DNA of 32,000 bases from Caldivirga maquilingensis IC-167 (GTDB taxonomy: Archaea; Thermoproteota; Thermoprotei; Thermoproteales; Thermocladiaceae). Positions 3,547 through 29,801 of this stretch are shown here, piece by piece; within the stretch, counting starts at the first letter, position 1; every line of letters begins with the position of its first letter. The stretch is from the NCBI RefSeq assembly GCF_000018305.1, contig NC_009954.1, forward strand, positions 1,500,001-1,532,000, written 5' to 3'. Below the pieces are notes generated by a model. That model was given only the letters and a program-made list of their open reading frames with translations. It did no database searches and was not told where the DNA came from. The translations under genes were made by a program, and so were the position numbers.

Positions 3547-3547
3547 G

Positions 3548-13178: not shown

Positions 13179-13201
13179 CCTGAATCAGCATCCTTAGTGG
13201 A

Positions 13202-13612: not shown

Positions 13613-13622
13613 GCCATGCAAA

Positions 13623-15552: not shown

Positions 15553-15553
15553 C

Positions 15554-16579: not shown

Positions 16580-16967
16580 AAACTACGTGACAAGCCTAAT
16601 GAGGGACATTGAGGGTGTAATAAATGAAATCGTAAACATATCCTCAAAACCATTCAATGAACTATCCACTGCGGAGAAATACGCAATTAGATACGGCATA
16701 ATAGTAATCGCAGAAGCACTAACAGCCCTGGGCATCGAGCCCGAACCCCCAATCCACGCACTCAGGGTACTAAGGGACAACGGACTTTTAACCCTAAACG
16801 AGTGTGATGAACTCGAAAGGCTCATAAGGCTAAGGAACCTCCTCGTACATAGGTACTGGACCGTGGATGATAGGAGGATTTACGAAAACATAAAGGGAGA
16901 CTTCAAACACATACTCAACCTAATTGATAGATTAAAGAGGGTGCAAAACCATGACAACAGTATTTAA
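16557..16967 (+). CDS. hepT: DUF86/HepT-type HEPN toxin
   Basis: 136 aa. RLIRLRNLLVHRYWTVDDRRIYE contains the canonical Rx4H (RNLLVH) motif of DUF86 HEPN RNases. It overlaps the ATPase 3' end by 23 nt; an alternative start is ATG 16599. Confidence 0.8.
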   Translation: MNLKGIDENYVTSLMRDIEGVINEIVNISSKPFNELSTAEKYAIRYGIIVIAEALTALGIEPEPPIHALRVLRDNGLLTLNECDELERLIRLRNLLVHRYWTVDDRRIYENIKGDFKHILNLIDRLKRVQNHDNSI

Positions 16968-17340
16968 GTACTACAGGCTTAATGAGGAGGAGAGGAGGAG
17001 GGTCGCCGAGAAACTGAGGGAGGTCCTCGTAACCGAGGGGGTGAAGTTAGCAATAATCTTCGGAAGCTTCATAGAGCTAGGGAGCTTCAGGGACATAGAC
17101 ATCGCAGTATACCTAGAAGACCCAGGGGACCTTGACAAAATCCTAAGGCTAGGAGTAAAACTCGAAGACACAATCAAAATCCCGGTGGACGTAGTCCCAA
17201 TCCAGGAACTACCACCAAAGCTCAGGCATAAAATACTAACCAAGGGCATGGTCATACTAGAGGAACCAGGCATGTACGAGGCGCTATGGTCTCAAACAAT
17301 GGATGAATTAACAATAATGAACACAACAAACACCCACTGA
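16951..17340 (+). CDS. mntA: MntA-type nucleotidyltransferase antitoxin
   Basis: 129 aa. LAIIFGSFIELGSFRDIDIAVYL gives the GSx10DxD motif, and PVDVVPIQELPPKLRHKILTKG is also present. It overlaps hepT by 17 nt and stops 4 nt before ATPase paralog 4. Confidence 0.8.
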   Translation: MTTVFKYYRLNEEERRRVAEKLREVLVTEGVKLAIIFGSFIELGSFRDIDIAVYLEDPGDLDKILRLGVKLEDTIKIPVDVVPIQELPPKLRHKILTKGMVILEEPGMYEALWSQTMDELTIMNTTNTH

Positions 17341-17344
17341 GCAC

Positions 17345-18361
17345 ATGAAGAGGGTAAGGCTGAGGTTCGCTGGGCGCGAGGTGGAGTTCGTGGATAGAGA
17401 AGCCGCTATTAAGTGGATCGGGGAGCTGGCTGAGAGGGGCACCGGCTTAGTCCGCGTAGTTTATGGGCCCGAGGGTTGTGGTAAGTCTGCGTTGTTTAAG
17501 CAAGCCGTGGAGGTCCTCAGGGACCACGGCTACGAGGTCTCGTACATAAGCCCACTGTCTAGAGCCGATGAGGACAGGCTAATCCTCACCGAGGGGCTTA
17601 GGAAATTGTTCGTGGACCTTGGGTCCGTCTTCGTTGGTGACGCAGCAAGACTAATCGACACAGCCGTGAAATTGCTATACGACGCAGTGAGGAGGAGGCT
17701 TACAGGGAGGATAGCCCTACTCGCCGATGACGTATTCCAAGCAGTAGGGCTGGACAAAGCTGAGCTGTTAGTCAAAGGATTCCTAAACATGATAGAGTAC
17801 CCGCCGGTTGATTATGAGAAGATAGTCGTAATAGTGGCGTCGAGCGAAGGCGTCACAAGGGGGAGAGTGGGTAGGCACAGGTGGGCGTTTTTACACATCA
17901 TGTGGAACATGCCCAGGGAAGGCTTCGAGAAACTCTACGAGGAAATACCTGGGCCAAAGCCCCCGTTTGAAGACGTGTGGAAATGGACCGGTGGGAACCC
18001 CAAGGCGCTGGAAACCCTCTGGGAATTAAACTGGGACGTAGACAGATACGTAGACAACGTGATAAAGTCGAGAGAGCTTATGAAAATGGCGGCGGAGCTA
18101 AGCAGCGCAGAAACCGAAATACTGACACAGTCGCTGGATGACCCGGACGTCCTCTTAAAACGGTACAGGGAGGCCAAGGGACTCGTGCAGAGACTTATAG
18201 AGAACAACTTGATAATAGAGATATGGAAAAGGGACCAGGACTGGGTGGACGTGCCGCCGCCCGAGAGGGATCCCGAGCTGGGCATCGGAAAATACTTCGC
18301 CTGGCAAACACCAATGCACAGGGAAGTGGTAAAGAGGGTACTCGAGGAAACAAAAACATAA
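17345..18361 (+). CDS. Archaeal ATPase family protein (PF01637-like), paralog 4
   Basis: 338 aa. It has YGPEGCGKSALF, IALLADDVFQ and LGIGKYFAWQTPMHREVVKRVL. The 5' end is about 60% GC by hand count. Confidence 0.85.
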   Translation: MKRVRLRFAGREVEFVDREAAIKWIGELAERGTGLVRVVYGPEGCGKSALFKQAVEVLRDHGYEVSYISPLSRADEDRLILTEGLRKLFVDLGSVFVGDAARLIDTAVKLLYDAVRRRLTGRIALLADDVFQAVGLDKAELLVKGFLNMIEYPPVDYEKIVVIVASSEGVTRGRVGRHRWAFLHIMWNMPREGFEKLYEEIPGPKPPFEDVWKWTGGNPKALETLWELNWDVDRYVDNVIKSRELMKMAAELSSAETEILTQSLDDPDVLLKRYREAKGLVQRLIENNLIIEIWKRDQDWVDVPPPERDPELGIGKYFAWQTPMHREVVKRVLEETKT

Positions 18362-18383
18362 ACCCCCACACAACCAAACACAC

Positions 18384-18941
18384 ATGGCAACCATAACAAT
18401 ACCCAAGAAACTATACGAAGCACTAAGGAAACACGGAATAGACGTAGAGACAAAGGCAATTGAGGCACTACTAAAAGAAGCCCAACTAGACCCCAATGAA
18501 GAAGCCGAGATACACCTAGAACTAGCACAAAAACTCCTCAATGAAGGCGAAGCACTGATCGAGAAGGACCCCATACAAGCAGGCGAGAAGCTGTATAAGG
18601 CGGCCGAGGAAAGCGTCAAGGCGCTAGCCATACACTACAACCTAAAGGACATACTCGAAAAAGCGAGAGATAGAGGTAGATGGACAGTTACGGAGCTCGA
18701 AAAAGCAGTCCTCCAGATCTCGAGCAGAGCCGGCGAGTGGTTCAGAAGAGCCTGGGACGCAGCATGGACACTACATGTATGGGGATTCCACGAAGCAAAA
18801 TTCGACAGCGAGGACGTGAGGGAGAGGGAGCCCGACATTAAGAGAATAATTGAGGAGGCGATAAAAGCGATAGGCAGGGACGGGGAGAACAAAGACTTTA
18901 AAGACACCACGGACAATAAACACAGTGAAACTACACATTAA
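18384..18941 (+). CDS. PaREP1-like protein (archaeal PaREP1/PaREP8 family, HEPN-clan-like helical protein)
   Basis: 185 aa. EAEIHLELAQKLLNEGEALIEKDPIQAGEKLYKAAEESVKALA...RGRWTV...WFRRAWDAAWTLHVWGFHEAKFDSEDV resembles my recollection of the PaREP1 consensus. No Rx4-6H motif is visible. Confidence 0.55.
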   Translation: MATITIPKKLYEALRKHGIDVETKAIEALLKEAQLDPNEEAEIHLELAQKLLNEGEALIEKDPIQAGEKLYKAAEESVKALAIHYNLKDILEKARDRGRWTVTELEKAVLQISSRAGEWFRRAWDAAWTLHVWGFHEAKFDSEDVREREPDIKRIIEEAIKAIGRDGENKDFKDTTDNKHSETTH

Positions 18942-19848
18942 GAACTGGAGAAGCATAGAGGAAGTAGAGATAGAACTAAAGCCAGTAACAATAATCATGG
19001 GGCCAAACGACGCAGGGAAATCAAGCCTCGCATACGCACCGTACTTCCTAACAAAAACCATCAAGTGGAGAGACGCAAACAAAGTACTAAAATTACTATA
19101 CGGCACAGAACTAAACAACATCGCAAGGCACGAATACGACAAACCACAATACCCAGTAATAATCGAAGTAGACGGAGCACGCTTCAAGGCTCAAAACCCC
19201 AACGATGTAAAGAAAGCCGACATAGAGATAGCTGGGGAAAGTCCCTGGAACGACGGCTACCTACTACCATCGGGAAGGCTTACCTTCATGAAAATGCTAC
19301 GAATAGTGCCTAGAATCCTCAGACAGATAACAAGAACACGAGACTATTCAGCATTTCCACCACCGATGTACCTATTCCTCGATGATTTAGTGAGGATTCA
19401 CGGGATTGGCCCCCTACTACTGGAGCATGAACTAACCGAGTACACAGACCCATTTGCAAAAGCAAAACTACCACTAAACCTAGCACCAGACGGAACCACA
19501 GACCACTCACTAATAAACCTCTTCATAAACAACGTCCAGGAAGGCAGCCTACTAATCATCGAGGAACCAGAAATACACAAAAACCCAACCCTAGTGATAG
19601 AACTCACAAGACAAATAACACAGGAAGCAATAAACAAAAAACTAACAATAATAATAACAACACACAGCGACATAATACCACAAACAATAGCCAAAACCGT
19701 GGAAGAAGGCAAAACAAAGCCGAACAACGTAGCAATCTACTACCTAGAGAGAAAACCCTGGACACAGGCAAGGGAACTAAAGATCCACGAAGACGGCACA
19801 ATAGAGGAACTACCAGACGTGGAGAAAATAATCACGGAATTATTCTAA
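18925..19848 (+). CDS. Compact ABC/SMC-type ATPase (AAA_15/AAA_21-like, no coiled coil)
   Basis: 307 aa. NWRSIEEVEIELKPVTIIMGPNDAGKSSL gives the N-terminal strand and Walker A. LAPDGTTDHSLINL is signature-like. LLIIEEPEIHKNPTLV gives Walker B and the EEPE.h.hP motif typical of AAA_21. IIITTHSD is the H-loop. It overlaps the upstream gene by 17 nt. Confidence 0.7.
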   Translation: MKLHIKNWRSIEEVEIELKPVTIIMGPNDAGKSSLAYAPYFLTKTIKWRDANKVLKLLYGTELNNIARHEYDKPQYPVIIEVDGARFKAQNPNDVKKADIEIAGESPWNDGYLLPSGRLTFMKMLRIVPRILRQITRTRDYSAFPPPMYLFLDDLVRIHGIGPLLLEHELTEYTDPFAKAKLPLNLAPDGTTDHSLINLFINNVQEGSLLIIEEPEIHKNPTLVIELTRQITQEAINKKLTIIITTHSDIIPQTIAKTVEEGKTKPNNVAIYYLERKPWTQARELKIHEDGTIEELPDVEKIITELF

Positions 19849-19849
19849 C

Positions 19850-20404
19850 ATGACCCTACACGTAATCCTAGACCACTCAGCACTCATACCCTGCGGAGAC
19901 AAGCCAAAGGAGGAGAAAGAGGCGATAAGAGAGATCATGAATAGGATCATGGACATAGACGTAACATGGCACGTAACCGGATACTACCTTAAAGTACTAA
20001 ACACGGTACTCAACAAAAACCTAAAGAACCACCACCCACTCCCCAGGTTACTAGCATCATTAGAAAGAACAAAAAGATACCTCCTGGAACTCTCAAGGAG
20101 CAAACAAATTATATGCAAACCACGCAGGCTTAAAAGCTTAAAAATACACGTAATAGCAAGGAAGGCCTCGGAAAGGGTAGAGATACCCCATAGCGAAAGA
20201 CTAAACGAGATAAACAACGAAGACGTAGAAATAATCGCAATAGGATTGACAATTGCAGAAAGAATAAAAGGCGAAAAACCAGTGTACATAGTCACGACAG
20301 ACACAAAACTTGAAGAAGCCATAGATGAACTAGAGAAACTAGGAATAAAAGAATTAAAGGCAATAACACCAAGCAAATTATTAGAAGAATTACCAAAACA
20401 ATGA
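19850..20404 (+). CDS. PIN-like domain protein (putative nuclease partner of the ABC-type ATPase)
   Basis: 184 aa. It has an N-terminal HVILDHSAL (strand plus Asp), internal acidic positions (EEKEAIRE, NEDVEIIAIGL) and a C-terminal VYIVTTDTKLEEA, matching the spacing of the PIN acidic quartet by eye. It starts 1 nt after the ATPase stop. Confidence 0.5.
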   Translation: MTLHVILDHSALIPCGDKPKEEKEAIREIMNRIMDIDVTWHVTGYYLKVLNTVLNKNLKNHHPLPRLLASLERTKRYLLELSRSKQIICKPRRLKSLKIHVIARKASERVEIPHSERLNEINNEDVEIIAIGLTIAERIKGEKPVYIVTTDTKLEEAIDELEKLGIKELKAITPSKLLEELPKQ

Positions 20405-20416
20405 AAGCATAGAAGC

Positions 20417-21508
20417 ATGAGGATAGTACACGTAGCACCATTTTATAAACCGGTAATAGGCGGCGTGGAGGAGGTAGTGCAAAGAATAGCGGAGTACACA
20501 GCAGCTAGGGGGCATGAGGTACACGTAATCACATACAATAGGCTCAGGACAGGAGGCAAAGGTGCACTACCAAGGGAGGAATGGATCAATGGGGTGCATG
20601 TAATAAGGCTGAAACCAAACTTAACATGGAGTCACGGAACATACAGTAGGGAACTACCTGAAGTACTTAGGAAACTAAAGCCAGACCTAGTCCATGTGCA
20701 CGTGTGGAGGCACCCACATGTAATCCAGGTGGCAAGGCTAAGGAGGGAGATGGGATTCAAAGCGATACTGCATGGTCATGCACCATTCCATAAACTAAAC
20801 CAAGTGGGGCCAATAACCTGGACATATTATAAACTCGTAGACACAACGCTAAGAAGCATCCTAAAGAATTACGACACATACATAGCATTAACGAAACATG
20901 AAGCAGAAACAATAAGGAGAATGGGACTAGAAGAAGACAAAATAATGGTAATACCGAATGGAATAAACCAGGATCAATGCATACTAAGCAATGAAAGAGA
21001 GGACATGGTACTTTACCTGGGTAGAATCAGTAAGGTAAAGAACATTGAATTACTAGTAAAGGCCGCGAAATACATAAAGCATGCACAATTAGTAATTGCA
21101 GGGCCAGATGAAGGACTAATAAATACAATACTACAATATGCAGGAAAACACAACATAGAAGTAAAGTATCTAGGCGCAGTGAGTGAGGAAAAGAAACATG
21201 AATTATACCTAAAAGCCAAGGCCTATGCACTACCATCAATATATGAACCATTTGGAATAACACTACTCGAAGCAGGAATACACGCAACACCAAGCGTGAT
21301 AACGGGGAATGGGGGACAAGTCTACGCAGCACCACCAGGTAAGGCAAGCCTATGGGCAGAACCAAAGCCGGAGAAATACGCTGAAGCCATCATACAACTG
21401 CTAACCGACCAAGAGCTACATAGGAGATTAAGCCAAGGCGCTCTTCAGCACGCTGAACAACACCTATGGAGCAAAATACTACCAAGGTACGAGGAAATAT
21501 ATGGCTAA
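20417..21508 (+). CDS. Glycosyltransferase family 4 (GT-B, Glyco_trans_4 + Glycos_transf_1)
   Basis: 363 aa. The N-terminus is MRIVHVAPFYKPVIGGVEEVV...GHEVHVIT. The C-terminal motif is PSIYEPFGITLLEAGIHATPSVIT (Ex7E). Confidence 0.85.
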   Translation: MRIVHVAPFYKPVIGGVEEVVQRIAEYTAARGHEVHVITYNRLRTGGKGALPREEWINGVHVIRLKPNLTWSHGTYSRELPEVLRKLKPDLVHVHVWRHPHVIQVARLRREMGFKAILHGHAPFHKLNQVGPITWTYYKLVDTTLRSILKNYDTYIALTKHEAETIRRMGLEEDKIMVIPNGINQDQCILSNEREDMVLYLGRISKVKNIELLVKAAKYIKHAQLVIAGPDEGLINTILQYAGKHNIEVKYLGAVSEEKKHELYLKAKAYALPSIYEPFGITLLEAGIHATPSVITGNGGQVYAAPPGKASLWAEPKPEKYAEAIIQLLTDQELHRRLSQGALQHAEQHLWSKILPRYEEIYG

Positions 21509-22493
21509 ACCATTAATCAGTGTAGTAATTACGGCATATAATAGGAGGGAGTACTTAAGGTACGCTGTTAAATCGGTGCTAAACCAAACCTTGGATAGAA
21601 ACTTCTATGAAGTAATAGTCATAAAGAACTTCGAAGACTCATACACAGACAAATTAATTGAAGGAGTGGGTAGAACAATAAACGTAGACATAGCATCAAT
21701 AGGCGCAAAAATAGCCCTGGGAATAAGGGAGTCTGAGGGTGAAGTGGTGGCATTCCTTGAAGATGACGACTTATGGCATAGTAGGAAGCTAGAGCATGTA
21801 GCCGAGGCATTCAGAAATAACAATGACCTAATGTACTACCACCACAATACATACGCAATAGATAAATACGGAAACATAATACATGACTCGCTCATTGAGA
21901 GGACGAACATAAATAATTACGTATATGCCAGCAACGAAGATGAGAAAATGAAAGTATTCAAACAGTATGGTTGGGGCCTTGGTCTCAGGAACAGCTCCAT
22001 AGCCGTAAGAAGGGATGTATACGAAAAATACGCACCTATAATAAGACTCCTCCCAGATGCGGTGGATGTGGCACTATACCTGGTAGCGTTAAGCGTAAAG
22101 GGTTCAATAATTCATGAACCACGGAGATTAATGTTCTTTAGAATACACGAGACAAACACAAGTAGCGTGAGATTCGCACCACAGAGTGAAAGGCTACATA
22201 GGGTAGCCGTGAACTCTGTAAAACATACCATAGCAAGATATGCACTAGCAACCATCGCCAGGCACATAAAGCCCCAACTAACCAGATACGCAGGCTATGA
22301 CGAAGCATCAATAGTAGCGGGCATATTAGCAAATTGGAGGGGATACACGGCAGTAATGAGTTTAAATTTATTAAATCATTGTAAATCACTAACATGCCTA
22401 GCAACGGCAATACTAGGCATTATAAACACAATAAGCCCAGAACTAACGAAGAGAATCATCACACTATACTACACTAAAGGATTCAGACTCTAA
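21501..22493 (+). CDS. Glycosyltransferase family 2 (GT-A)
   Basis: 330 aa. It has ISVVITAYNRREYLRYAVKSVLNQT and the DxD motif AFLEDDDLW. It overlaps the upstream gene by 8 nt. Confidence 0.85.
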   Translation: MAKPLISVVITAYNRREYLRYAVKSVLNQTLDRNFYEVIVIKNFEDSYTDKLIEGVGRTINVDIASIGAKIALGIRESEGEVVAFLEDDDLWHSRKLEHVAEAFRNNNDLMYYHHNTYAIDKYGNIIHDSLIERTNINNYVYASNEDEKMKVFKQYGWGLGLRNSSIAVRRDVYEKYAPIIRLLPDAVDVALYLVALSVKGSIIHEPRRLMFFRIHETNTSSVRFAPQSERLHRVAVNSVKHTIARYALATIARHIKPQLTRYAGYDEASIVAGILANWRGYTAVMSLNLLNHCKSLTCLATAILGIINTISPELTKRIITLYYTKGFRL

Positions 22494-23632
22494 TGATAAT
22501 AGTACACACGCATCATCACTACTGGCCGGTAGCGGGAGGAATAGAAAATGCAATTAAATACCTCGCCGAGGAACAGGCAAAACTTGGTCACGAGGTGCAC
22601 ATAGTAACGGGCACCTATGGAGCCCAGAAAAGACCTAGGGAGGAAGAAATAAACGGTGTGCACGTACATAGAATTAAGGCGTGGAGATTAGGCTACCCAG
22701 ACCTAACAATACCAAGGGAAACACCTAGGGAACTGCTCAAGAGGGCTGACGTGATTCATGCTCACTCACAAAACAGCTTATTCTCAGTGAGAATAGCCCA
22801 GGAGGCACATGAGCTAGGTGTTAAGGTAGCCATACACTACATGGCTGTCGACACCCTCCAAACACACCCAAACCCAGCCATAAGGCTCCTTGGACCAATA
22901 TACGCCAGGAGAAACCTAGAAATGGCAAAGGAAATAGCGGACATACACCTAGCAAGAAGCAAAAGGGACGTAGAAAAACTAAGAAAATACGGAATACAAG
23001 CACACTACCTACCAGACGCAATACCAAAACACTACCTAACAAAACCCAAAGCAGACCCAGAGGAATTCAGGAGGAAATACGGAATAACACAGGACAAACT
23101 ATTCATATACATAGGAAGAATACACAAACTCAAGGGACCACACGTACTAGTCAAGGCGCTACCATACCTAAGCAACGACATAGCAATAATAATGGCAGGA
23201 CCAGACAACGGATACCTAAAACAAACCCTAGAACTAGCCAATAAACTACACGTGAAAGACAGACTATATTACCTAGGCTACGTAGACGAAGATACAAAAA
23301 TAAACGCCATAGACGCATCAACGGCGCTAGTCCTACCATCAACCACAGACTATGTAGAGGTATACCCCATGACAATAACCGAGGCATGGGCAAGAGAAAA
23401 ACCAGTAATAGCCACAAACGTAGGAGGAATACCATACAGGGTAACACACGGCATAAACGGACTAATAATACCACCAAACAACCCACAGGAACTAGCCAAA
23501 GCAATACAACAACTAGCAAACAACCCAGAAAAGACACAACAAATGGGTAAGGAGGGTAAAAAGGAAATCAAGACATGGGACGAAATCGCAAAAGAAACCA
23601 TAAAAATATACAACACCACAAACAACCCATGA
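22493..23632 (+). CDS. Glycosyltransferase family 4
   Basis: 379 aa. It has MIIVHTHHHYWPVAGGIENAIKYL...GHEVHIVT and VEVYPMTITEAWAREKPVIATNVGGIPYRVTHGINGLII. The junction with the upstream gene is a TAATG overlap. Confidence 0.85.
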   Translation: MIIVHTHHHYWPVAGGIENAIKYLAEEQAKLGHEVHIVTGTYGAQKRPREEEINGVHVHRIKAWRLGYPDLTIPRETPRELLKRADVIHAHSQNSLFSVRIAQEAHELGVKVAIHYMAVDTLQTHPNPAIRLLGPIYARRNLEMAKEIADIHLARSKRDVEKLRKYGIQAHYLPDAIPKHYLTKPKADPEEFRRKYGITQDKLFIYIGRIHKLKGPHVLVKALPYLSNDIAIIMAGPDNGYLKQTLELANKLHVKDRLYYLGYVDEDTKINAIDASTALVLPSTTDYVEVYPMTITEAWAREKPVIATNVGGIPYRVTHGINGLIIPPNNPQELAKAIQQLANNPEKTQQMGKEGKKEIKTWDEIAKETIKIYNTTNNP

Positions 23633-24564
23633 AAGCCCTAATAACAGGAGGGGCAGGATTCATAGGAAGCCACCTAGTAGATAAACTACTAGCAAGGGGC
23701 TACCAAGTCAAGGTAATAGACAACCTAAGCACGGGAAGAATAGAAAACATAACCCACGTACTAAACAAAATACAATTCACCAAAACAGACCTAAAAAACA
23801 TAGAAGACACACTAAAAGCACTCAAAGACACAGACGTAATATTCCACTTCGCGGCAAACCCGGAGGTCAGGGTCAGCACAGTCAGCCCTGAGGTGCACTT
23901 CAACGAGAACGTGGTCGCCACGTTCAACCTGCTCGAGGCAATGAGGAGGATGGACGTGAGGGAGATTGTGTTCGCGTCGTCTAGCTCGGTCTACGGGGAG
24001 CCTGAGGAAATACCGGTAAGCGAGGACGCGCCAACAAGGCCCGTCTCGGTCTACGGAGCGAGTAAGGCGGCCTGCGAAAATCTGATACACGCGTACTCAA
24101 GGCTCTACGGGATGAAGGCGGTGATCCTGAGGTACGCGAACGTGGTTGGGCTGAGGCTGAGGCACGGTGTAATATACGACTTAATCATGAAATTAAGGAA
24201 GGACCCAACCAGGCTGGAGGTGCTCGGCGATGGGACCCAGGTCAGGAGCTACATACACGTGGATGACGCCGTGGAGGCAACGTTAATAGCCCACGAGAGG
24301 ACTGGAGGCGGCTACCACGTATTCAACGTGGCGAGCGAGGACTGGATAACCGTGGACGAAGTCGTAAACATAATCACGGAGGAACTCGGGGCAAAGCCAG
24401 AGATAATCCACAAACCAATCCTACATGGCGTTGGCTGGCCAGGGGACGTGAAGAGGATAGCCCTGAGGATAGACAGGCTCAGGGAGCTGGGCTTCAAGCC
24501 GAGAATGAATAGTAAAGAAGCCGTGAGGGTTACCGTAAAGGCACTAATCAGGGAATCAGGATAA
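23629..24564 (+). CDS. NAD-dependent epimerase/dehydratase (extended SDR; UDP-sugar 4-epimerase or decarboxylase-like)
   Basis: It has MKALITGGAGFIGSHLV, FASSSSVYG and YGASKAACE (YxxxK). I prefer ATG 23629, which forms an ATGA overlap with the upstream stop, over the ORF-track start 23575, whose 18-aa extension overlaps the GT4 gene. Confidence 0.85.
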   Translation: MKALITGGAGFIGSHLVDKLLARGYQVKVIDNLSTGRIENITHVLNKIQFTKTDLKNIEDTLKALKDTDVIFHFAANPEVRVSTVSPEVHFNENVVATFNLLEAMRRMDVREIVFASSSSVYGEPEEIPVSEDAPTRPVSVYGASKAACENLIHAYSRLYGMKAVILRYANVVGLRLRHGVIYDLIMKLRKDPTRLEVLGDGTQVRSYIHVDDAVEATLIAHERTGGGYHVFNVASEDWITVDEVVNIITEELGAKPEIIHKPILHGVGWPGDVKRIALRIDRLRELGFKPRMNSKEAVRVTVKALIRESG

Positions 24565-24591
24565 TCATGGAATTAGCCATAAGTTAGGAGG

Positions 24592-25173
24592 ATGATGAAG
24601 ATTTTCTATAAGTTAGGAGTACAAACTGCTGGTAGGCTTGGACTCTACGTTGAGAGAACAAGAACTTACTTAAAAATTATTTTGAGGTTGATACGCGTTT
24701 TAAGGACATTAAGAAGTAAGTGTATAGCCTTAGACTTAGGCTGCGGTGATGGCTACTTTGCTTATAAAGTATCACGTCTTTGCATGTATGTTTTAGGTAT
24801 CGATATAAAATTTCACAATTCCTGGAAATCTAAACATAATGTAAATACGGAATATATTGTGGCTGATGCACGCTATTTACCGCTACGGTCTAATAGTATT
24901 GACCTTATTTACGCACTTTCACTCTTGGAGCTAGTGGAACCCCATACTAAGTTACCATTACTAGGTCTAGTACCGAAGACCCTGAGGAGAGTAATTTTGC
25001 ATCATTCTAACTATTCTGATTTACAATTTAATATACACTTAAAGAACTTAATCAGAGAGTTAAGAAAACAGTACTTTAATGTAATCGGTATAGTTCCTCA
25101 TTACCATTCTAAACATTTAAGAGTTATTCCCATAGCACCATCATATTTTATAATAGCATTAAAGGAATTATGA
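24592..25173 (+). CDS. Class I SAM-dependent methyltransferase (Methyltransf_11-like)
   Basis: 193 aa. Motif I is ALDLGCGDGYFAYKV and the post-I region is VADARYLPLRSNSIDLIYALSLLELV. Its composition differs from both neighbours (about 32% T and 34% GC in a hand-counted 120 nt). Confidence 0.6.
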   Translation: MMKIFYKLGVQTAGRLGLYVERTRTYLKIILRLIRVLRTLRSKCIALDLGCGDGYFAYKVSRLCMYVLGIDIKFHNSWKSKHNVNTEYIVADARYLPLRSNSIDLIYALSLLELVEPHTKLPLLGLVPKTLRRVILHHSNYSDLQFNIHLKNLIRELRKQYFNVIGIVPHYHSKHLRVIPIAPSYFIIALKEL

Positions 25174-25220
25174 TAATTTCAGTTTTTAAAGAACCCATGA
25201 GAGTTACCTAACAAAGGGCC

Positions 25221-26237
25221 ATGCTTAAGATAGCCCTAGCCCTAGGCTACTATGAAATCGGCGGCTTCAAAACAGTAATAGACAACCTAGCAGCAAAACT
25301 CAGCGAAAAAGGACACGAAGTCACAGTATACGCAAGGGTAATAAGAACAAAACCGCCAAAGGATGTTAACGTTATCAAAGCATCACCACAGGAATTCTAT
25401 AGAGAAACTAGAAAACACGACATAATACACGTACATACATCATACCCATACCTAAAAGTACTCGCTGACAACAACGCACTAGACAACGTAGTATTCACAT
25501 ACCATGGATACGCACCTTGGTATGAAGTACCAGGCACAACAAGCAAACTAATAAACCTATACCTACTGATTATGTACAAAAGACTACTCAAGAAGGTCAA
25601 AGTAGTAACCGCAGTCAGTAATTACGTAAAAGAACAAGTAAGAAAATTATTCAATAGGGAGGCCATAGTGATTTACAATGGCGTAAATCTCACAGTATTT
25701 AAACCAAATATGAATATAAATAAGCAGACTAACGAAATAATAATATTCAATGCAACTGCGTGGAACAGATTCAAGGGGCAGGAACGCCTAATTAAATATT
25801 ACAGGGTAATAAAAAGACAATACCCAAATGCAAAACTAATGATGAGGGGCAACTACCAAGGTAACTCTGAGGATATACAAGTGCTCCCGCCCATGGACCC
25901 AACGGAACTAGCCAAGTACTACTCAATGGCAACATTCTATTTACTAGTATCATCGTGGGAGAGCTTCGGCTTACCAATAATTGAAAGCATGGCATGCGGA
26001 ACCCCAGTAATAGCCTGGGACAGACCAGACGCCAGGCGCGAACACATACTCAACTCAGGTGCGGGCTACTTATTCAGGAACGAGGAAGAATTGCTACAGG
26101 CGGTTAAGAATGTAATAGAAAACAGAGAGGAACTGTCACAAAAAGCCATAAACTACGCAAGGCAATTTGACTGGGAAAATATTGTCAATAAATACCTAGA
26201 TGCCTACGGTGTGATCATCAATGAGGAAATACAATAA
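25221..26237 (+). CDS. Glycosyltransferase family 4
   Basis: 338 aa. It has IGGFKTVIDNLAAKLSEKGHEVTVYA and SSWESFGLPIIESMACGTPVIAWD. Confidence 0.8.
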   Translation: MLKIALALGYYEIGGFKTVIDNLAAKLSEKGHEVTVYARVIRTKPPKDVNVIKASPQEFYRETRKHDIIHVHTSYPYLKVLADNNALDNVVFTYHGYAPWYEVPGTTSKLINLYLLIMYKRLLKKVKVVTAVSNYVKEQVRKLFNREAIVIYNGVNLTVFKPNMNINKQTNEIIIFNATAWNRFKGQERLIKYYRVIKRQYPNAKLMMRGNYQGNSEDIQVLPPMDPTELAKYYSMATFYLLVSSWESFGLPIIESMACGTPVIAWDRPDARREHILNSGAGYLFRNEEELLQAVKNVIENREELSQKAINYARQFDWENIVNKYLDAYGVIINEEIQ

Positions 26238-27840
26238 AGTCGCCATATTACTAACCTCCGCCTCGATAATACTATTTACCTACTCAACAATCTCCATGAC
26301 TAAATTCACAGTTAATGTAATAACCCAATCACCATTTTACCTATACAATAACACACCATATATAGTAACAATAATCCTCACACTAATCACAACAATAATA
26401 TTAACACTCATAAATACCGGCGCAAAGAAAACATTGAACGCAATATTAATAATCATACTATGGTTCATGGTACTGGCCGAACCATACTTAACATACATAA
26501 ATGCACTACCCCTATACAACGACCAGCTAGGCTTCGTAGAAGAAGTACTGGCAATGATAAACACAGGCAGAGCAGTAGCCATACAAGGTGGTGTAACAAC
26601 ACTTGGACACGCATATTTCACATCATCACTAGCACTTCTAACAGGAATAAACGGAATAAATGCGGCAATTCTCGTTCAGCTCATAATGCCAATAATATAC
26701 GCAGTAACATACCTAGCCTTAACATCAGACATAGAAGACGTAAGAGCACGAATCCTAACCTCACTAATAATCCTAGCATCATTCCTAAACCCATTTTGGT
26801 ACGGAAGAACGCCCTTCGCCTTGATCTTCCTCGCGCTACTAACATTAATAATTTATAAACTATTCACAAAAGGAGTCAGCTACGAACAAAACACCCTGAG
26901 AATCACAATGTACATATTATACGCAGCCTACGCAATATCGGACCCCACATCACTATTCATACCATTAATATTCATGGCAGCATCTATATTTAATAAAAGA
27001 TATACATTAATATTCATAGCAACCTCACTAATATGGATCACAATTAATCTAATAGCTATGGTATCAGGAAGCCTATACTCAGCACTAATGGAACTAATAG
27101 ATCTATTCACCGCACCATCAAATCCAGTGCTCTCGCTACTAACGCCCGGCGTTAACGAAGTAATAATGATATACTACCGATTACGTGAATTAAACGTATT
27201 ACTGATGTACATAGTAGGCCTAATAATAATATACTATATAATAAATAGAATAAAAAAGAGAAATCAAGACTTCGTCAAGGATTTACTAATATTAATTTAC
27301 ATTATTTCAGTAATAACTGAAGCGGCAGCTCTCGCAATAAACAGGTGGGGAATGGTGCCATATACACTCTATACATTAAGCATAATACCAATAATGTTAA
27401 TAATATACAGGGAATACTACAACACAAAGAAAATACCCCTAGCCGCAATAATGGCAATAACCCTTTCACTTATCATAATGGCACCCGCAGTCAAATGGGG
27501 CTATGCAGCAATAGCATTCCCAACACCACATGATATAGCAGAATCACAATTCCTAACCAACTATACACAAATAAACACCCAAATATGCACCGCAGGAGCA
27601 CACCAAATCCTACAATTCTATTCATATATAAATAACAAAACACTGAACCAATATGCATTAAACCTACCAATGGGTAGCAACATACCCAGTACATGCCATA
27701 TCATAGCCATATTCTACAGGGCAATGAATACGTACAGAATGGACATGACATTAAACCAACTAATGCAAACAATAAACCAACTCGACAACAATTACAACAT
27801 AATCTACAAGGATGAAACATGGACAGTGTGGGCAAAGTAA
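26221..27840 (+). CDS. Large polytopic membrane protein with C-terminal soluble domain; candidate glycan polymerase or GT-C-type transferase
   Basis: 539 aa with about 12 or more hydrophobic helices, followed by a ~110-aa hydrophilic C-terminus. It is embedded in the GT cluster with overlaps on both sides. No AglB WWDxG motif was seen. The function is inferred from context only. Confidence 0.45.
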   Translation: MRKYNKVAILLTSASIILFTYSTISMTKFTVNVITQSPFYLYNNTPYIVTIILTLITTIILTLINTGAKKTLNAILIIILWFMVLAEPYLTYINALPLYNDQLGFVEEVLAMINTGRAVAIQGGVTTLGHAYFTSSLALLTGINGINAAILVQLIMPIIYAVTYLALTSDIEDVRARILTSLIILASFLNPFWYGRTPFALIFLALLTLIIYKLFTKGVSYEQNTLRITMYILYAAYAISDPTSLFIPLIFMAASIFNKRYTLIFIATSLIWITINLIAMVSGSLYSALMELIDLFTAPSNPVLSLLTPGVNEVIMIYYRLRELNVLLMYIVGLIIIYYIINRIKKRNQDFVKDLLILIYIISVITEAAALAINRWGMVPYTLYTLSIIPIMLIIYREYYNTKKIPLAAIMAITLSLIIMAPAVKWGYAAIAFPTPHDIAESQFLTNYTQINTQICTAGAHQILQFYSYINNKTLNQYALNLPMGSNIPSTCHIIAIFYRAMNTYRMDMTLNQLMQTINQLDNNYNIIYKDETWTVWAK

Positions 27841-28760
27841 CATACATAACTTACTCTGGGATACCGCACCTGGGACATGTAACATGGGTTTCACTGCTTA
27901 AGCTCATAGCAAAAACAAGGGTTATAAGTTATAAGGAGGTACTAATAAAACTACCCACAAATGAGATAATAATAGCAGAGGGTTTAAGACCAACATTAAT
28001 AAGCATGTCATTAAAACCATTGAATAAATGTATAGTAGCCATAGCCCTCTCACCATCAATCCTGAATAAAAAGGCACACATGCTGTACTCGAGGGCTGAC
28101 GTAATAATAGCTGTATCGGAAATGGTGAGACAATTATTTAATCCAGAAAAAATCGTGGTTGTACACCCAAGACCACCTGACCTAGAGCATTTAATAAAAC
28201 TGAACGTAGACGATAAAAAACCCTGGATATGCTACTCAGGCCCGTTAATACCAATAAAGGGGATCCACATCATACCCGAGGTGGTAAAACACATCACAAG
28301 GAGTGCAAATAATGTGAAAATGATAGTAATGGGCGCAGGGGACACGATGTCACTAAGAAGAAAAAGCAAGGAACTCGGAGTCGAGGATAAAATAGTCATA
28401 GCAGGACCACTCCCAAGACCAAAGGTAATAAATACATTACGCCACTGCAGCATCTACATGCAACCATCATTATTTGACGCATTCTCAATAGCTGTTGCTG
28501 AAGCAATGGCACTCGCAAACGTACCCATCATAACTAAGAATGTGGGATCAAAAGACCTAGTAGAAAAACTAGATAGATCGCTGATTGTAAGTTATGATAG
28601 CGAAGCCATAGCTCAAATAATACTAACAATCCTGAGCCCCAAAAACACGCAGGAGCTCGGTAAAAATGCCAGGGAAATAGTGGCCAGGGAGCTATCCCTG
28701 AAAAATACGGCAAGGAAACTAACAGAGGTACTTGAAAGATGCCTAAAGCATGCATATTAA
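27819..28760 (+). CDS. Glycosyltransferase (GT4-like, Glycos_transf_1 C-domain)
   Basis: 313 aa. It has PSLFDAFSIAVAEAMALANVPIITKNVGSKDLV and overlaps the upstream gene by 22 nt. Confidence 0.7.
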   Translation: MDSVGKVTYITYSGIPHLGHVTWVSLLKLIAKTRVISYKEVLIKLPTNEIIIAEGLRPTLISMSLKPLNKCIVAIALSPSILNKKAHMLYSRADVIIAVSEMVRQLFNPEKIVVVHPRPPDLEHLIKLNVDDKKPWICYSGPLIPIKGIHIIPEVVKHITRSANNVKMIVMGAGDTMSLRRKSKELGVEDKIVIAGPLPRPKVINTLRHCSIYMQPSLFDAFSIAVAEAMALANVPIITKNVGSKDLVEKLDRSLIVSYDSEAIAQIILTILSPKNTQELGKNAREIVARELSLKNTARKLTEVLERCLKHAY

Positions 28761-29743
28761 TTAGGCACCCCACGTATATAGAAGGACAAACAACATACGC
28801 AAGAAACTTCCTAAAGGTATTAAGCATGATATACGGCAAAGACCTCAAGATAATCGTTTCAACACGCAATGCTCACAATACACCTTACGAACTCTATATC
28901 AGGGAATCACTATTACTAATTAAGTATCAAAGCTGTGATGACATACATATATTAAATATAAATAAAGTGCTACCACTGGCAACCAGGGTAATTATGAAAA
29001 TACATGCACGTACAATAACGTACCAATTCTCATACCTACCCACAATACATAGCGACTGGCGTATAAAAAGAGCAATAATCGAAAAGGGATCACAGATAAT
29101 CATCGGCACATCGAGAAGAATAGCCGAACTATTCAGCAAAGCCTACTTCATACACCCACCAATAAACATAGAATTATTCAAACCAGGAAACAAGAAAAAA
29201 GCCAAAGAAACACTAGGCTTGCCAGGAAACACTAAACTAATAGGCTATATAGGTGACATAGATATGAAGAGAGGAATAGATATAGTAATCGACACGGCAA
29301 TTAAATACTCGAGAGAGGGAGTTAAAACGCTAATGGTAACACCACGACTCGACTCAATAACAAAAGAAACCCTAGAAAAACTCAAACAAGCATACAAGGA
29401 CAAAGCAATAATCTGGATTACAAAACCAACCCCCATATGGCTAATCTATAACGCAATAGATGTGCTACTGCTCCCAATAAGGGGCGAGTACCCCACAGAA
29501 CCACCAGCAACACTACTAGAAGCGCTCTCATCAGGAACTCCAGTCATAGGCACAAAAAGCTCCAGCATGAGTGATTATGAAGAACTTTACATAGCAGTTA
29601 ATGAGAACGAAATACCAGAGGTAATAGATGTAGCATTCGAAAACGAGGATTTAAGGGCAAAAGCTAGGGACTTTGCAGTGAAAAACTTAAGTTATGAGGC
29701 GGTAGCGAATAAACTCAGCAGGGTTTTACACATATGTCAATAA
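28739..29743 (+). CDS. Glycosyltransferase (GT4-like)
   Basis: 334 aa. It has IGYIGDIDMKRGIDIVI and EYPTEPPATLLEALSSGTPVIGTKSSSMSDY, and overlaps the upstream gene by 22 nt. Confidence 0.7.
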   Translation: MPKACILIRHPTYIEGQTTYARNFLKVLSMIYGKDLKIIVSTRNAHNTPYELYIRESLLLIKYQSCDDIHILNINKVLPLATRVIMKIHARTITYQFSYLPTIHSDWRIKRAIIEKGSQIIIGTSRRIAELFSKAYFIHPPINIELFKPGNKKKAKETLGLPGNTKLIGYIGDIDMKRGIDIVIDTAIKYSREGVKTLMVTPRLDSITKETLEKLKQAYKDKAIIWITKPTPIWLIYNAIDVLLLPIRGEYPTEPPATLLEALSSGTPVIGTKSSSMSDYEELYIAVNENEIPEVIDVAFENEDLRAKARDFAVKNLSYEAVANKLSRVLHICQ

Positions 29744-29801
29744 TAGTCACACGAGATACCCAAGGAGTGGATTATTCGAGGTTGCCCGTACAATAAGCCA
29801 C

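What the first reader, a model, noticed from the sequence alone, without database searches (positions are those of the whole stretch)
23629..24564. Abrupt intragenic GC jump (35% to 61%) inside the SDR epimerase gene
Seen:
- Hand count of 23701-23820 gives 42/120 G+C (35%, A-rich, T-poor).
- 23941-24060 gives 73/120 (61%).
- The switch occurs near 23850, within one continuous reading frame that encodes a normal extended-SDR (GGAGFIGS ... YGASK).
- The GC-rich style resembles that of the ATPase/TA island, for example 17341-17460 at 72/120 (60%).

Inference: the gene looks like a recombinant between alleles from lineages or replicons with very different base composition. If the sequence comes from a metagenome, it could instead be a chimeric assembly joined at a conserved motif.
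Basis: partly seen in the sequence, partly recalled or inferred. Interest (0 to 1): 0.55.

Follow-up and report, generated by a model that had tools for sequence, protein, structure and literature searches.

The report
Mosaic sugar-epimerase gene from recombination
One sugar-epimerase gene of the hot-spring archaeon Caldivirga maquilingensis is stitched from two differently composed alleles, joined at a conserved motif. This is a real but fairly ordinary trace of recombination in a variable cell-surface glycosylation gene cluster, which itself lies in an unexplained stretch of strongly strand-skewed DNA.

Summary
Inside ORF 23629-24564 (+), GC rises from about 36-39% to 56-60% at nt 23842 (support 23839-23860). 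The change is at third codon positions: A3 falls 0.61 to 0.20, G3 rises 0.07 to 0.39, and T3 stays at or below 0.07. It is the largest GC step in the 32-kb window, and none of about 80 homologues has one.

The window comes from the complete genome of the isolate Caldivirga maquilingensis. Two independent read-set assemblies reproduce the junction at 100% identity, so misassembly is excluded.

The halves have different relatives. Residues 1-78 group with Vulcanisaeta thermophila (bootstrap 94-97%, including composition-robust recoding), whose whole gene is A-rich. Residues 100-260 sit instead with GC3-rich alleles (a hot-spring contig and a 'Pyrobaculum sp.' MAG). The junction lies at the start of the conserved block IFHFAANPEVRVST. 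No parent above 77% identity was found and synonymous sites are saturated, so the donors are unsampled or the event is old.

Verdict: a mosaic gene made by homologous recombination or gene conversion in a hypervariable glycosylation cluster, a known kind of event.

More unusual is the A-rich, T-poor style around it. It is a DNA-strand property (AT skew up to 0.7 over 13-17 kb) shared with V. thermophila and is unexplained.

The parts
23629..24564 (+). NAD-dependent epimerase/dehydratase gene (extended SDR, UDP-sugar 4-epimerase-like), 311 aa. It is intact. The start ATG overlaps the stop codon of the upstream GT4 gene (ATGA).
   Evidence: 100% identical to the C. maquilingensis protein P0001. 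Pfam PF01370 E = 2.8e-61. Closest PDB entry 3ICP/3KO8, E = 1.4e-93. No NCBIfam equivalog reaches its cut-off.
23629..23841 (+). 5' segment with the A-rich, T-poor style. It is V. thermophila-like.
   Evidence: GC3 0.38, A3 .61, T3 .01. V. thermophila is the nearest relative (74.7%, rank 1 of 119), with bootstrap 94-97%. Two length differences are shared with V. thermophila; the loop one is also found in 21 other homologues.
23839..23883 (+). Junction. The composition change point is at 23842 (support 23839-23860), at the start of the conserved block V-IFHFAANPEVRVST.
   Evidence: Likelihood change-point analysis. Alleles are 76-87% identical at nucleotide level in alignment columns 76-105, against 40-58% in columns 61-75. 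Codon alignment.
23842..24501 (+). GC3-rich segment. A3 is replaced by G3 while T3 stays low. It is nearest to the P0018, P0024 and P0020 alleles.
   Evidence: GC3 0.77, A3 .17, G3 .41, T3 .06. P0018 ranks 1 in residues 161-260 and V. thermophila ranks 93-119. The epimerases of L029, L030 and L034 have the same style over their whole length.
24502..24591 (+). Poorly resolved 3' boundary zone of the GC-rich patch: the last 20 codons plus the 27-nt spacer.
   Evidence: A GC step of -0.195 at about 24504. The second change point, at codon 291, is not significant (p = 0.10).
24592..25173 (+). Class I methyltransferase gene with a third, AT-rich and T3-rich style. It is absent from this position in the colinear relatives.
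   Evidence: Pfam PF08241. GC 0.34, T3 .35. No tblastn match in any fetched locus. Not present between the epimerase and GT4 genes in L028, L029 or L030.
22493..23632 (+). Upstream GT4 glycosyltransferase gene, which is itself mosaic.
   Evidence: Composition shift at codon 118, about nt 22847. The N-terminal 100 aa are 70-80% identical to the V. thermophila, 'Pyrobaculum sp.' and V. moutnovskia homologues. After that the V. thermophila homologue falls to about 0.3 while the other two stay at 0.4-0.76.
20417..29743 (+). Glycosyltransferase cluster colinear with that of a 'Pyrobaculum sp.' MAG (L030). GT2 21501-22493 and the methyltransferase are extra genes.
   Evidence: tblastn colinearity at 39-71% identity. 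Pfam annotation.
16000..29750 (.). Domain of strong strand asymmetry (plus strand A>>T, C>G). It is interrupted at about 23850-25200 by the GC-rich patch and the methyltransferase gene.
   Evidence: AT skew 0.19-0.50 in 1-kb windows and up to 0.71 in 120-nt windows, dipping to 0.13 at 24.0-25.5 kb. T3 is 0.04-0.17 in the genes of this domain other than the methyltransferase gene (T3 .35). Four-fold sites are A .60, T .07, against A .29, T .36 in genes at 1-13 kb.

Best explanation
The epimerase gene is a mosaic made by homologous recombination (a crossover or a gene-conversion patch) between two diverged alleles of the same gene with very different codon composition.

One allele is A-rich and T-poor, of the type now seen in Vulcanisaeta thermophila, and supplies codons 1-71. 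The other is GC3-rich, of the type seen in a hot-spring metagenome contig, in Logan contig L034 and in a 'Pyrobaculum sp.' MAG. It supplies codon 72 to roughly codon 290-311.

The exchange resolved at the first long conserved nucleotide block of the gene (IFHFAANPEVRVST), so the frame and the Rossmann fold stayed intact.

Shown: the sharp synonymous-site switch, the conflicting nearest relatives of the two parts, the match between each part's style and that of its relatives, the absence of the step in about 80 homologues, and the reproducibility of the junction.

Inferred:
- The mechanism. Homologous recombination after DNA import is plausible because Thermoproteales, including Caldivirga, carry the Ted DNA-import system.
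- The direction. I favour (about 60:40) that the GC-rich 0.65-0.7 kb patch, perhaps together with the adjacent methyltransferase gene, overwrote part of an originally A-rich gene. The patch interrupts an otherwise continuous strand-skewed domain, and the V. thermophila gene is A-rich throughout.
- The age. The parents are unsampled or the event is old, but it is younger than compositional homogenisation.
For: - Composition: third-position change point at nt 23842, chi-square p = 2e-11, permutation p <= 5e-4. It is the largest GC step in the window.
- Raw identity: residues 1-75 are 74.7% identical to V. thermophila P0002 and at most 65% to 118 others. Residues 76-311 are 71% identical to P0002 and 77% to P0018.
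- Rank along the gene: P0002 moves from rank 1 to rank 93-119, and P0018 moves the opposite way. This holds after Dayhoff-6 recoding, which removes K/R, I/V and D/N effects.
- Bootstrap for the window gene grouping with P0002: 94% (raw) and 97% (recoded) in the N part, against 0% and 12.5% in the C part.
- MaxChi on the triplet: p = 0.001 (amino acids) and p = 0.03 (recoded).
- Style of the relatives: the V. thermophila gene is A3 .52, G3 .09, T3 .03 throughout. The L029, L030 and L034 genes are A3 .18-.22, G3 .34-.36, T3 .09-.12 throughout.
- No step in 28 + 52 homologues.
- The junction sits where alleles become 76-87% identical at nucleotide level.
- Independent assemblies L001 and L002 are 100% identical over 20306-29559.
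- Mosaicism is general in this cluster: the GT4 gene 22493-23632 has its own coincident composition and similarity break, and other intragenic change points occur in related loci.
- Substrates for conversion exist: two close epimerase paralogues share one cluster in L033, and L032 has a frameshifted copy.
- Literature: the Ted system, likely importing single-stranded DNA, is present in all five Thermoproteales genera (PMC9905601). Within-gene recombination has been reported in archaeal glycosylation genes (PMC5867893).
Against: - No parental allele was found. The best hits in 5.8 billion proteins and in JGI metagenomes are 75% (N part, V. thermophila) and 77% (C part). The N-part protein search was odd: it listed only short fragments and returned neither the self-match nor P0002.
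- Synonymous sites are close to saturation against every relative. Same-codon fractions are 0.73 against 0.65 expected, and 0.61 against 0.51 expected. The event therefore cannot be tied to any sampled donor.
- The C part has no well-supported sister (the best clade has about 30-40% bootstrap).
- After recoding, the signal against the 'Pyrobaculum sp.' allele alone is not significant (p = 0.44).
- The last 50 residues look V. thermophila-like again after recoding, and a rare 1-residue deletion is shared with V. thermophila. That deletion is also shared with P0003, P0033 and P0094.
- Composition-driven amino-acid convergence (K/(K+R) is 0.80 in the 5' part and 0.33 in the 3' part) inflates raw similarity in both directions.
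Confidence: 0.7

Rival explanations
1. There was no recombination. The gene is vertically inherited, and the boundary is the edge of a local strand-specific mutational domain (the process that makes the surrounding 13 kb A-rich and T-poor) which happens to end inside the gene. Amino-acid similarities then follow composition.
For: The A-rich style is a DNA-strand property that ignores gene boundaries and orientation. It also shifts amino-acid usage, for example K/R and I/V. T3 stays low on both sides of the junction, so only the A/G ratio changes. After recoding, the C-terminal tail is V. thermophila-like.
Against: After Dayhoff-6 recoding, the V. thermophila protein still drops from rank 1 to rank 93-115 in residues 161-220, and the bootstrap falls from 97% to 12.5%. 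The switch is complete within about 7 codons. The V. thermophila orthologue is A-rich along its whole length, so there is no conserved domain edge. The A-rich style resumes at 25221 after a 1.35-kb interruption, which looks like a patch rather than a domain end.
Confidence: 0.15
2. The junction is an assembly or cloning chimera that joins DNA of two organisms at a conserved motif.
For: The junction sits at a conserved motif, where chimeras tend to form.
Against: The protein and its contig belong to the 2,077,567-bp complete genome of an isolate. Two independent sequencing runs (SRR253096 and SRR9435970), assembled separately, give 8.5-kb and 4.8-kb contigs that are 100% identical to the window across the junction and both flanks.
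Confidence: 0.01
3. The GC-rich 3' part is maintained by selection for an overlapping functional element, such as a structured RNA or an antisense gene, which are typically GC-rich in hyperthermophiles.
For: Antisense ORFs of 92 and 61 aa lie in the GC-rich part. GC-rich islands in AT-rich hyperthermophile genomes often mark RNA genes (general knowledge).
Against: There is no Rfam hit and no tRNA in the window. The GC enrichment is at third positions of the sense frame. Related alleles are GC3-rich over their whole length without any step. It does not explain the change of nearest relatives.
Confidence: 0.03
4. Chance or ordinary heterogeneity: the genes of this region are all compositionally patchy, and this is simply the most extreme example.
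For: Other ORFs in the window and in related loci have change-point statistics nearly as high (27.5, 27.1 and 26.9 against 29.6).
Against: Permutation p <= 5e-4 within the gene. The GC3 difference lies 4 SD outside the distribution of 52 homologues. The composition break coincides with a break in phylogenetic affinity. The other patchy genes are most simply further recombination mosaics.
Confidence: 0.05

Closest known systems
Within-gene recombination in archaeal protein-glycosylation genes (Haloferax aglJ, aglD, aglB and S-layer glycoprotein genes; PMC5867893), and more generally mosaic genes and cassette exchange in bacterial O-antigen and capsule loci with junctions in conserved genes (general knowledge)
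   Same: A variable cell-surface glycosylation cluster; exchange between diverged alleles by homologous recombination; a breakpoint inside a conserved gene; atypical composition relative to the genome.
   Different: This case is in a hyperthermophilic crenarchaeon (Thermoproteales/Thermocladiaceae). The two parts differ enormously in synonymous composition (GC3 0.38 against 0.74) rather than only in sequence. The parents are unsampled. No strain comparison is available to show cassette swapping at the population level.
Archaeal UDP-sugar 4-epimerase-like extended SDRs with solved structures (PDB 3ICP/3KO8 and 3AW9, 'NAD-dependent epimerase/dehydratase'; 3EHE, 'UDP-glucose 4-epimerase GalE-1')
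   Same: Full-length match (E = 1.4e-93 to 3.8e-83, residues 1-309). GxxGxxG and YxxxK motifs present. Same length.
   Different: The substrate is unknown. No NCBIfam equivalog (GalE, RmlB and others) reaches its cut-off. This gene is a chimera within the Rossmann domain.
Ted/Ced DNA-import systems of Crenarchaeota (PMC9905601)
   Same: They provide a documented route for chromosomal DNA exchange followed by homologous recombination in Thermoproteales, including Caldivirga and Vulcanisaeta. The imported DNA is probably single-stranded.
   Different: No Ted genes lie in this window. The link to this event is inference only.
Strand-asymmetric composition of genomes with a long-lived single-stranded intermediate (vertebrate mitochondrial H/L strands, rolling-circle replicons; general knowledge)
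   Same: One strand is A+C-rich and the other G+T-rich, irrespective of gene orientation. Third positions and spacers are both affected. The magnitude is comparable.
   Different: Here the asymmetry is a 13-17 kb chromosomal island in genomes whose overall skew is about 0.001 (PMC2780954). The main axis is A against T (purine loss to T) rather than the two transitions alone. No replicon features were found.

Membership tests
Extended SDR, NAD-dependent epimerase/dehydratase (PF01370) | N-terminal Rossmann dinucleotide-binding motif GxxGxxG | tested here: met
   GGAGFIGS at residues 7-14.
Extended SDR, NAD-dependent epimerase/dehydratase (PF01370) | Catalytic Ser/Thr ... YxxxK | tested here: met
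   The SSSS run (about residues 117-120) and YGASK (about residues 142-146) are conserved in all aligned homologues.
Extended SDR, NAD-dependent epimerase/dehydratase (PF01370) | Full-length profile match above the curated threshold | tested here: met
   PF01370: 207 bits against a cut-off of 20.9, covering residues 3-235 of a 240-position profile. PF16363: 192 bits.
UDP-glucose 4-epimerase GalE (TIGR01179 equivalog) | Score at or above the equivalog cut-off | tested here: not met
   194.9 bits against a cut-off of 262.3. The gene is therefore described only as epimerase-like; the substrate is unknown.
UDP-glucose 4-epimerase GalE (TIGR01179 equivalog) | Enzymatic 4-epimerase activity on a UDP-hexose | not testable with these tools
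   Needs a biochemical assay.
Recombinant (mosaic) gene | Abrupt, statistically supported change of sequence character along the gene | tested here: met
   Third-position change point at nt 23842, permutation p <= 5e-4, chi-square p = 2e-11.
Recombinant (mosaic) gene | Phylogenetic incongruence between the segments, robust to compositional bias | tested here: met
   N part groups with V. thermophila at 94-97% bootstrap; C part at 0-12.5%. The rank reversal persists after Dayhoff-6 recoding. MaxChi p = 0.001 (raw) and 0.03 (recoded).
Recombinant (mosaic) gene | The composition breakpoint and the phylogenetic breakpoint coincide | tested here: inconclusive
   The composition break is at codon 71-77. 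The MaxChi break falls between alignment columns 96 and 116. The interval between them is the conserved block, which has almost no informative sites, so the two are compatible but not pinned down.
Recombinant (mosaic) gene | Identifiable parental sequences | tested here: not met
   The best relatives are 75% (N part) and 77% (C part) identical, and synonymous sites are near saturation.
Recombinant (mosaic) gene | Not an assembly artefact | tested here: met
   Isolate genome, plus two independent assemblies that are 100% identical across the junction.
Hypervariable glycosylation / genomic island | Cluster of glycosyltransferase and sugar-modifying genes with atypical composition | tested here: met
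   Seven complete GT genes (six GT4/GT1-type, one GT2), a further GT1-domain fragment ORF (30353-30757), two methyltransferases and the epimerase on one strand. GC and skew differ from the genes at 1-13 kb.
Hypervariable glycosylation / genomic island | Presence/absence or allelic variation between strains of the species | not testable with these tools
   No second Caldivirga genome could be retrieved. The nearest orthologue in any database is 72% identical.
Hypervariable glycosylation / genomic island | Mobility hallmarks (tRNA target, integrase, flanking direct repeats) | tested here: not met
   No tRNA, no integrase domain among the annotated ORFs, and no significant repeats in the 22000-26500 stretch that was scanned (the ends of the whole domain were not scanned). 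No relatives on viral contigs.

The most novel reading that the evidence does not exclude
The GC jump is the edge of a repair or conversion patch inside a 13-17 kb chromosomal domain with an extreme strand asymmetry that ignores gene orientation. On the plus strand A>>T and C>G, with AT skew 0.3-0.7. This domain is shared by the glycosylation/defence islands of Caldivirga maquilingensis and Vulcanisaeta thermophila, and it appears as mirror-image single genes in V. distributa and in a Bathyarchaeia MAG.

The most novel reading not excluded is that this asymmetry is a mutational scar of one strand repeatedly existing as single-stranded DNA at 85 C or above. The damage would be depurination read as T, plus A-to-G and C-to-T deamination. 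The cause could be strand-specific intercellular DNA transfer (Ted-type import) or a strand-displacement-replicating ancestor. If so, frequently exchanged surface and defence islands in hyperthermophiles would carry a readable signature of how they travel.
Probability: 0.2. Interest if true: 0.7.

Novelty: new member of a known kind. Interest (0 to 1): 0.35.

Why it matters
For the gene itself, this is a clean and unusually visible example of intragenic homologous recombination between deeply diverged alleles in Thermoproteales. The group is genetically intractable, and DNA exchange in it (the Ted system) has only recently been proposed. It shows that surface-glycosylation clusters in hyperthermophilic Crenarchaeota evolve as mosaics, as they do in bacteria and haloarchaea. 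It also warns that composition-based HGT detectors and single-gene trees will mislead for such genes.

The context may matter more. A multi-kilobase island with mitochondrion-like strand asymmetry, in genomes that obey strand parity overall, is not explained by replication, transcription or codon selection. If it reflects a single-stranded phase, it would give a sequence-level handle on how DNA moves between hyperthermophilic archaea.

Tried and rejected
- Assembly chimera: rejected because independent assemblies are identical across the junction.
- Family-wide 5' low-GC 'ramp' or a shared internal step: rejected because none of about 80 homologues has it.
- Searching each half separately for a near-identical donor. 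The C part gave at most 77%. The N-part protein search returned only short fragments at 67% or less and missed even the self-match, so it was uninformative. A metagenome scan with N-part peptides gave at most 61%. The genome-contig scan did not return Caldivirga or Vulcanisaeta at all.
- Recent transfer from sampled relatives: rejected because synonymous sites are saturated.
- Intragenomic conversion from a close paralogue still present: no second Caldivirga protein appears among the top hits.
- Embedded ncRNA or tRNA: none found.
- Flanking repeats or att-like sites around the patch: only short chance-level repeats.
- Viral or proviral origin of the cluster: no relatives in IMG/VR for the epimerase or the GT4 gene.
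- Codon selection or mRNA-level selection (purine loading, avoidance of U-tract terminators) as the cause of the A-rich, T-poor style. This is rejected because the minus-strand genes in the V. thermophila domain are the mirror image and the spacers are skewed too. T-run depletion is no stronger than codon usage predicts.
- Pure deamination (transitions only) as the cause of the skew: it does not fit, because four-fold sites show a purine-to-pyrimidine shift with G and C unchanged.
- The rare C-terminal deletion as proof of V. thermophila ancestry of the tail: weakened because P0003, P0033 and P0094 share it.
- Literature search for codon-usage or skew anomalies in Caldivirga or Vulcanisaeta: nothing specific found.
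Full report
**Source and observation.** The window is from the complete genome of the isolate Caldivirga maquilingensis. The product of ORF 23629-24564 is 100% identical to its 'NAD-dependent epimerase/dehydratase family protein', which sits on a 2,077,567-bp contig. In 120-nt windows, GC goes from 0.36 at 23740-23859 to 0.60 at 23860-23979. The boundary at 23850 is the largest adjacent 200-nt GC step in the whole 32-kb window (+0.22).

The change is at synonymous positions of one intact reading frame. Codons 1-71 have GC3 0.38 (A3 .61, C3 .31, G3 .07, T3 .01). Codons 72-311 have GC3 0.74 (A3 .20, C3 .35, G3 .39, T3 .07). Chi-square is 52.5, p = 2e-11. A multinomial change-point analysis puts the switch at codon 71/72, nt 23842, with 2-lnL support 23839-23860 and permutation p <= 5e-4. 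In effect A3 is exchanged for G3, while C3 stays at about 0.3-0.35 and T3 stays very low on both sides.

Among 275 ORFs of at least 200 aa in the window and 31 related loci, this gene has the highest change-point statistic. Several other genes of these clusters come close. Towards the 3' end the GC-rich style fades about 60 nt before the stop codon, but that second boundary is not significant (p = 0.10).

**Not an artefact.** Two contigs assembled independently from two different sequencing runs (SRR253096, 8.5 kb; SRR9435970, 4.8 kb) are 100% identical to the window over 20306-29559, including the junction and both flanks. Together with the isolate origin, this excludes a chimeric assembly.

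**The gene.** It is an intact extended SDR. The motifs GGAGFIGS and YGASK are present. PF01370 scores E = 2.8e-61. The closest solved structures are 3ICP/3KO8, E = 1.4e-93, over the full length. No NCBIfam equivalog reaches its cut-off, so the substrate is unknown.

The gene lies in a co-directional cluster of seven complete glycosyltransferase genes plus a short GT1-domain fragment ORF, a 539-aa membrane protein and two methyltransferases. Upstream of that lies a defence-like stretch:
- three PF01637 ATPase paralogues (a fourth lies at 1486-2493),
- two HEPN/nucleotidyltransferase pairs,
- a PaREP1 gene,
- an AAA_15/21 ATPase.

The cluster from 20417 to 29743 is colinear with that of a 'Pyrobaculum sp.' MAG (L030). 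The ATPase/toxin-antitoxin/epimerase arrangement recurs in Vulcanisaeta thermophila (L028/L116).

**Do relatives show the step?** No. Twenty genome loci, the loci of V. thermophila, V. distributa, V. moutnovskia, the 'Pyrobaculum sp.' MAG and four metagenome or Logan contigs, and 52 further full-length metagenome homologues were checked. In the last set, the GC3 difference (3' minus 5') has mean 0.01, SD 0.074 and maximum 0.17. The window gene shows 0.32-0.36.

**Do the halves have the same relatives?** No.
- Residues 1-75 are 74.7% identical to the V. thermophila protein (P0002) and at most 65% identical to the other 118 top homologues.
- Residues 76-311 are 71% identical to P0002 but 77% identical to P0018, from a JGI hot-spring contig.
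- In 40-residue windows, P0002 ranks 1 of 119 over residues 1-80. It falls to rank 113-119 in residues 101-140 and 161-220. P0018 moves from rank 95-114 to rank 1.
- The reversal persists after Dayhoff-6 recoding, which neutralises the K/R, I/V and D/N exchanges that composition drives.
- Neighbour-joining bootstrap support for the window gene plus P0002 is 94% (raw) and 97% (recoded) for residues 1-78. For residues 79-311 it is 0% and 12.5%, and there the gene sits, without strong support, among P0018, P0010, P0024 and P0003.
- A MaxChi test on the triplet gives p = 0.001 (amino acids) and p = 0.03 (recoded). Against the 'Pyrobaculum sp.' allele alone, the recoded test is not significant.
- The window gene and P0002 also share two length differences in the N part. 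The one in the loop is found in 22 of 119 homologues.

**Style of each half.** Each half has the codon style of its relatives' genes. The V. thermophila gene is A3 .52, C3 .36, G3 .09, T3 .03 along its whole length. The L029, L030 and L034 genes are A3 .18-.22, C3 .34-.36, G3 .34-.36, T3 .09-.12 along theirs.

**Where the junction lies.** The switch coincides with the start of the first long conserved block of the gene, (V)IFHFAANPEVRVST. There the diverged alleles are 76-87% identical at nucleotide level. In the 15 codons immediately upstream they are only 40-58% identical. That is where homologous pairing between such alleles could first be sustained. It also explains why the frame and the fold survive, even though the joint lies inside the Rossmann domain.

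**Limits of the inference.** Neither parent was found. The best matches in 5.8 billion proteins and in JGI metagenomes are 75% and 77%. The N-part protein search behaved oddly and is not counted as evidence. At conserved residues, same-codon fractions barely exceed what codon usage predicts: 0.73 against 0.65, and 0.61 against 0.51. The relationship to every sampled relative is therefore old. The event is only 'recent' in the sense that the two styles have not blended.

The last 50 residues look V. thermophila-like after recoding. A rare one-residue deletion is shared with V. thermophila, but also with P0003, P0033 and P0094. The GC-rich donor may therefore itself have been a relative of that lineage, or there may be a second, unresolved breakpoint.

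**Direction.** I favour, at about 60:40, that the GC-rich 0.65-0.7 kb stretch overwrote part of an originally A-rich gene. Three observations point that way:
- The stretch and the adjacent methyltransferase gene (24592-25173) form a 1.35-kb interruption of an otherwise continuous skewed domain. The methyltransferase has a third, T3-rich style and is absent from this position in L028, L029 and L030.
- The V. thermophila gene is A-rich throughout.
- The 5' part is specifically V. thermophila-like.

Against this, the cluster's gene order matches L030, whose epimerase and upstream GT4 genes are GC3-rich.

**Mosaicism is general here.** The upstream GT4 gene (22493-23632) has its own composition shift at codon 118. 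At the same place its similarity to the V. thermophila homologue falls from 0.8 to about 0.3, while the L030 and V. moutnovskia homologues stay similar. Comparable intragenic change points occur in a V. thermophila ATPase gene and a V. moutnovskia GT4 gene.

Clusters of this type can carry two close epimerase paralogues (L033) or a frameshifted copy (L032), which are ready substrates for conversion. A route for exchange exists: the Ted DNA-import system, probably moving single-stranded DNA for homologous recombination, is present in all five Thermoproteales genera, including Caldivirga (PMC9905601). Within-gene recombination in archaeal glycosylation genes is already documented in Haloferax (PMC5867893). 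The finding is therefore a new member of a known kind.

**The unexplained context.** The 'A-rich, T-poor' style is not a codon preference.
- In the window, the plus strand has AT skew 0.19-0.50 (1-kb windows) from about 16 to 29.7 kb, peaking at 0.7 just upstream of the junction. Genes at 1-13 kb are balanced.
- At four-fold sites the skewed genes have A .60, C .19, G .14, T .07, against A .29, C .21, G .15, T .36 in the balanced genes. First and second positions and amino-acid usage shift too.
- In V. thermophila the same kind of domain covers about 17 kb. Its 16 plus-strand genes are A3-rich and T3-poor. Its two minus-strand genes are the exact mirror image on their own coding strand (A3 .03-.04, T3 .40-.43). 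The spacers are skewed as well.
- V. distributa has single genes of the mirror type inside its glycosylation cluster. One Bathyarchaeia MAG carries a mirror-type allele of this very epimerase among normal neighbours.
- Genome-wide, C. maquilingensis obeys strand parity, with |AT skew| of 0.0015 (PMC2780954).

Because the skew ignores gene orientation, transcription, translation and mRNA-level selection are excluded as causes. T-run avoidance is no stronger than composition predicts. Transitions alone cannot produce it either, because purines are lost to T on the minus strand.

One speculative fit is hydrolytic damage (depurination plus deamination) to a strand that is repeatedly single-stranded at 85 C or above. 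That could happen during DNA transfer or in a strand-displacement replicon. I found no tRNA, integrase, Rfam family, viral relatives or literature bearing on this.

**Verdict.** The event is an ordinary type, intragenic homologous recombination in a hypervariable glycosylation cluster, seen in an unusually vivid form because the two alleles differ so much in composition. The strand-skewed island around it is the part that deserves a follow-up.

Noticed in passing
window ~16000-29750; L116 (V. thermophila BCLI01000005.1) 1-17000: A 13-17 kb domain of extreme strand asymmetry: on the plus strand A>>T and C>G, with AT skew 0.2-0.7. It ignores gene orientation. Plus-strand genes have A3 about .5 and T3 about .05. 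Minus-strand genes in V. thermophila are the mirror image (A3 .03, T3 .42). Spacers are skewed too. No explanation was found.
   Followed up: partly
L031 (V. distributa CP002100) 3414-4361, 8683-9963, 14767-15795; L015 6001-6927: Single glycosylation genes with the mirror-image style (A3 .04-.10, T3 .39-.56) sit among normally composed neighbours. One is an allele of this same epimerase family in a Bathyarchaeia MAG. This suggests that gene-sized pieces of skewed DNA move between clusters.
   Followed up: partly
window 22493-23632: The upstream GT4 glycosyltransferase gene is itself mosaic. T3 drops from .15-.20 to 0-.07 at codon 118 (about nt 22847). At the same place its similarity to the V. 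thermophila GT4 falls from 0.8 to about 0.3, while the 'Pyrobaculum sp.' and V. moutnovskia homologues remain similar.
   Followed up: partly
window 24592-25173: A class I methyltransferase gene with a third style (GC .34, T3 .35) lies between the epimerase and GT4 genes. Colinear relatives have no gene there, and it has no homologue in any fetched locus. It is probably a separate insertion, and together with the GC-rich patch it interrupts the skewed domain.
   Followed up: partly
window 1486-2493, 13623-14645, 15554-16579, 17345-18361: Four PF01637 (archaeal ATPase/STAND-like) paralogues, 45-65% identical to one another, each have a different third-position style. The orthologue pair 15554-16579 and V. 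thermophila L028 1852-2862 is 81% identical in protein but differs in style (A3 .29, T3 .16 against A3 .42, T3 .07).
   Followed up: partly
window 14801-15552 and 16557-17340; 18384-18941; 18925-19848: Two HEPN/HepT plus nucleotidyltransferase (MNT) toxin-antitoxin pairs, a PaREP1 gene and an AAA_15/AAA_21 (AbiEii/OLD-like) ATPase lie directly upstream of the glycosyltransferase cluster. The same association of ATPase_2, PaREP1 or toxin-antitoxin genes with GT clusters recurs in V. thermophila, V. distributa, V. moutnovskia and the 'Pyrobaculum sp.' MAG.
   Followed up: no
window 23575-23628: the ORF listing extends the epimerase ORF to an upstream ATG at 23575 (MGRNRKRNHKNIQHHKQP...). That extension lies within the 3' end of the GT4 gene. 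The annotated 311-aa protein and all homologues start at 23629, where the ATG overlaps the GT4 stop codon (ATGA).
   Followed up: yes
window 538-1131 (-): A 197-aa ORF matches only part of the family B DNA polymerase exonuclease domain (PF03104 positions 63-181). It looks like a fragment or a stand-alone exonuclease-like remnant at the AT-rich left end of the window.
   Followed up: no
L032 (V. moutnovskia CP002529) 19360-20288; L033 5743-6717 and 10001-10957; P0139 (V. souniana): These glycosylation clusters hold additional epimerase copies. L032 has a copy split into three frames, L033 has two close paralogues 3.3 kb apart, and V. souniana has an annotated 80-aa N-terminal fragment. All are potential substrates or debris of recombination.
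   Followed up: partly
(tool behaviour): The protein search with the 75-residue N-terminal query listed only short (60-132 aa) fragments. It returned neither the 100% self-match nor the 75% V. thermophila protein, so it cannot be used to exclude a close N-part donor.
   Followed up: yes
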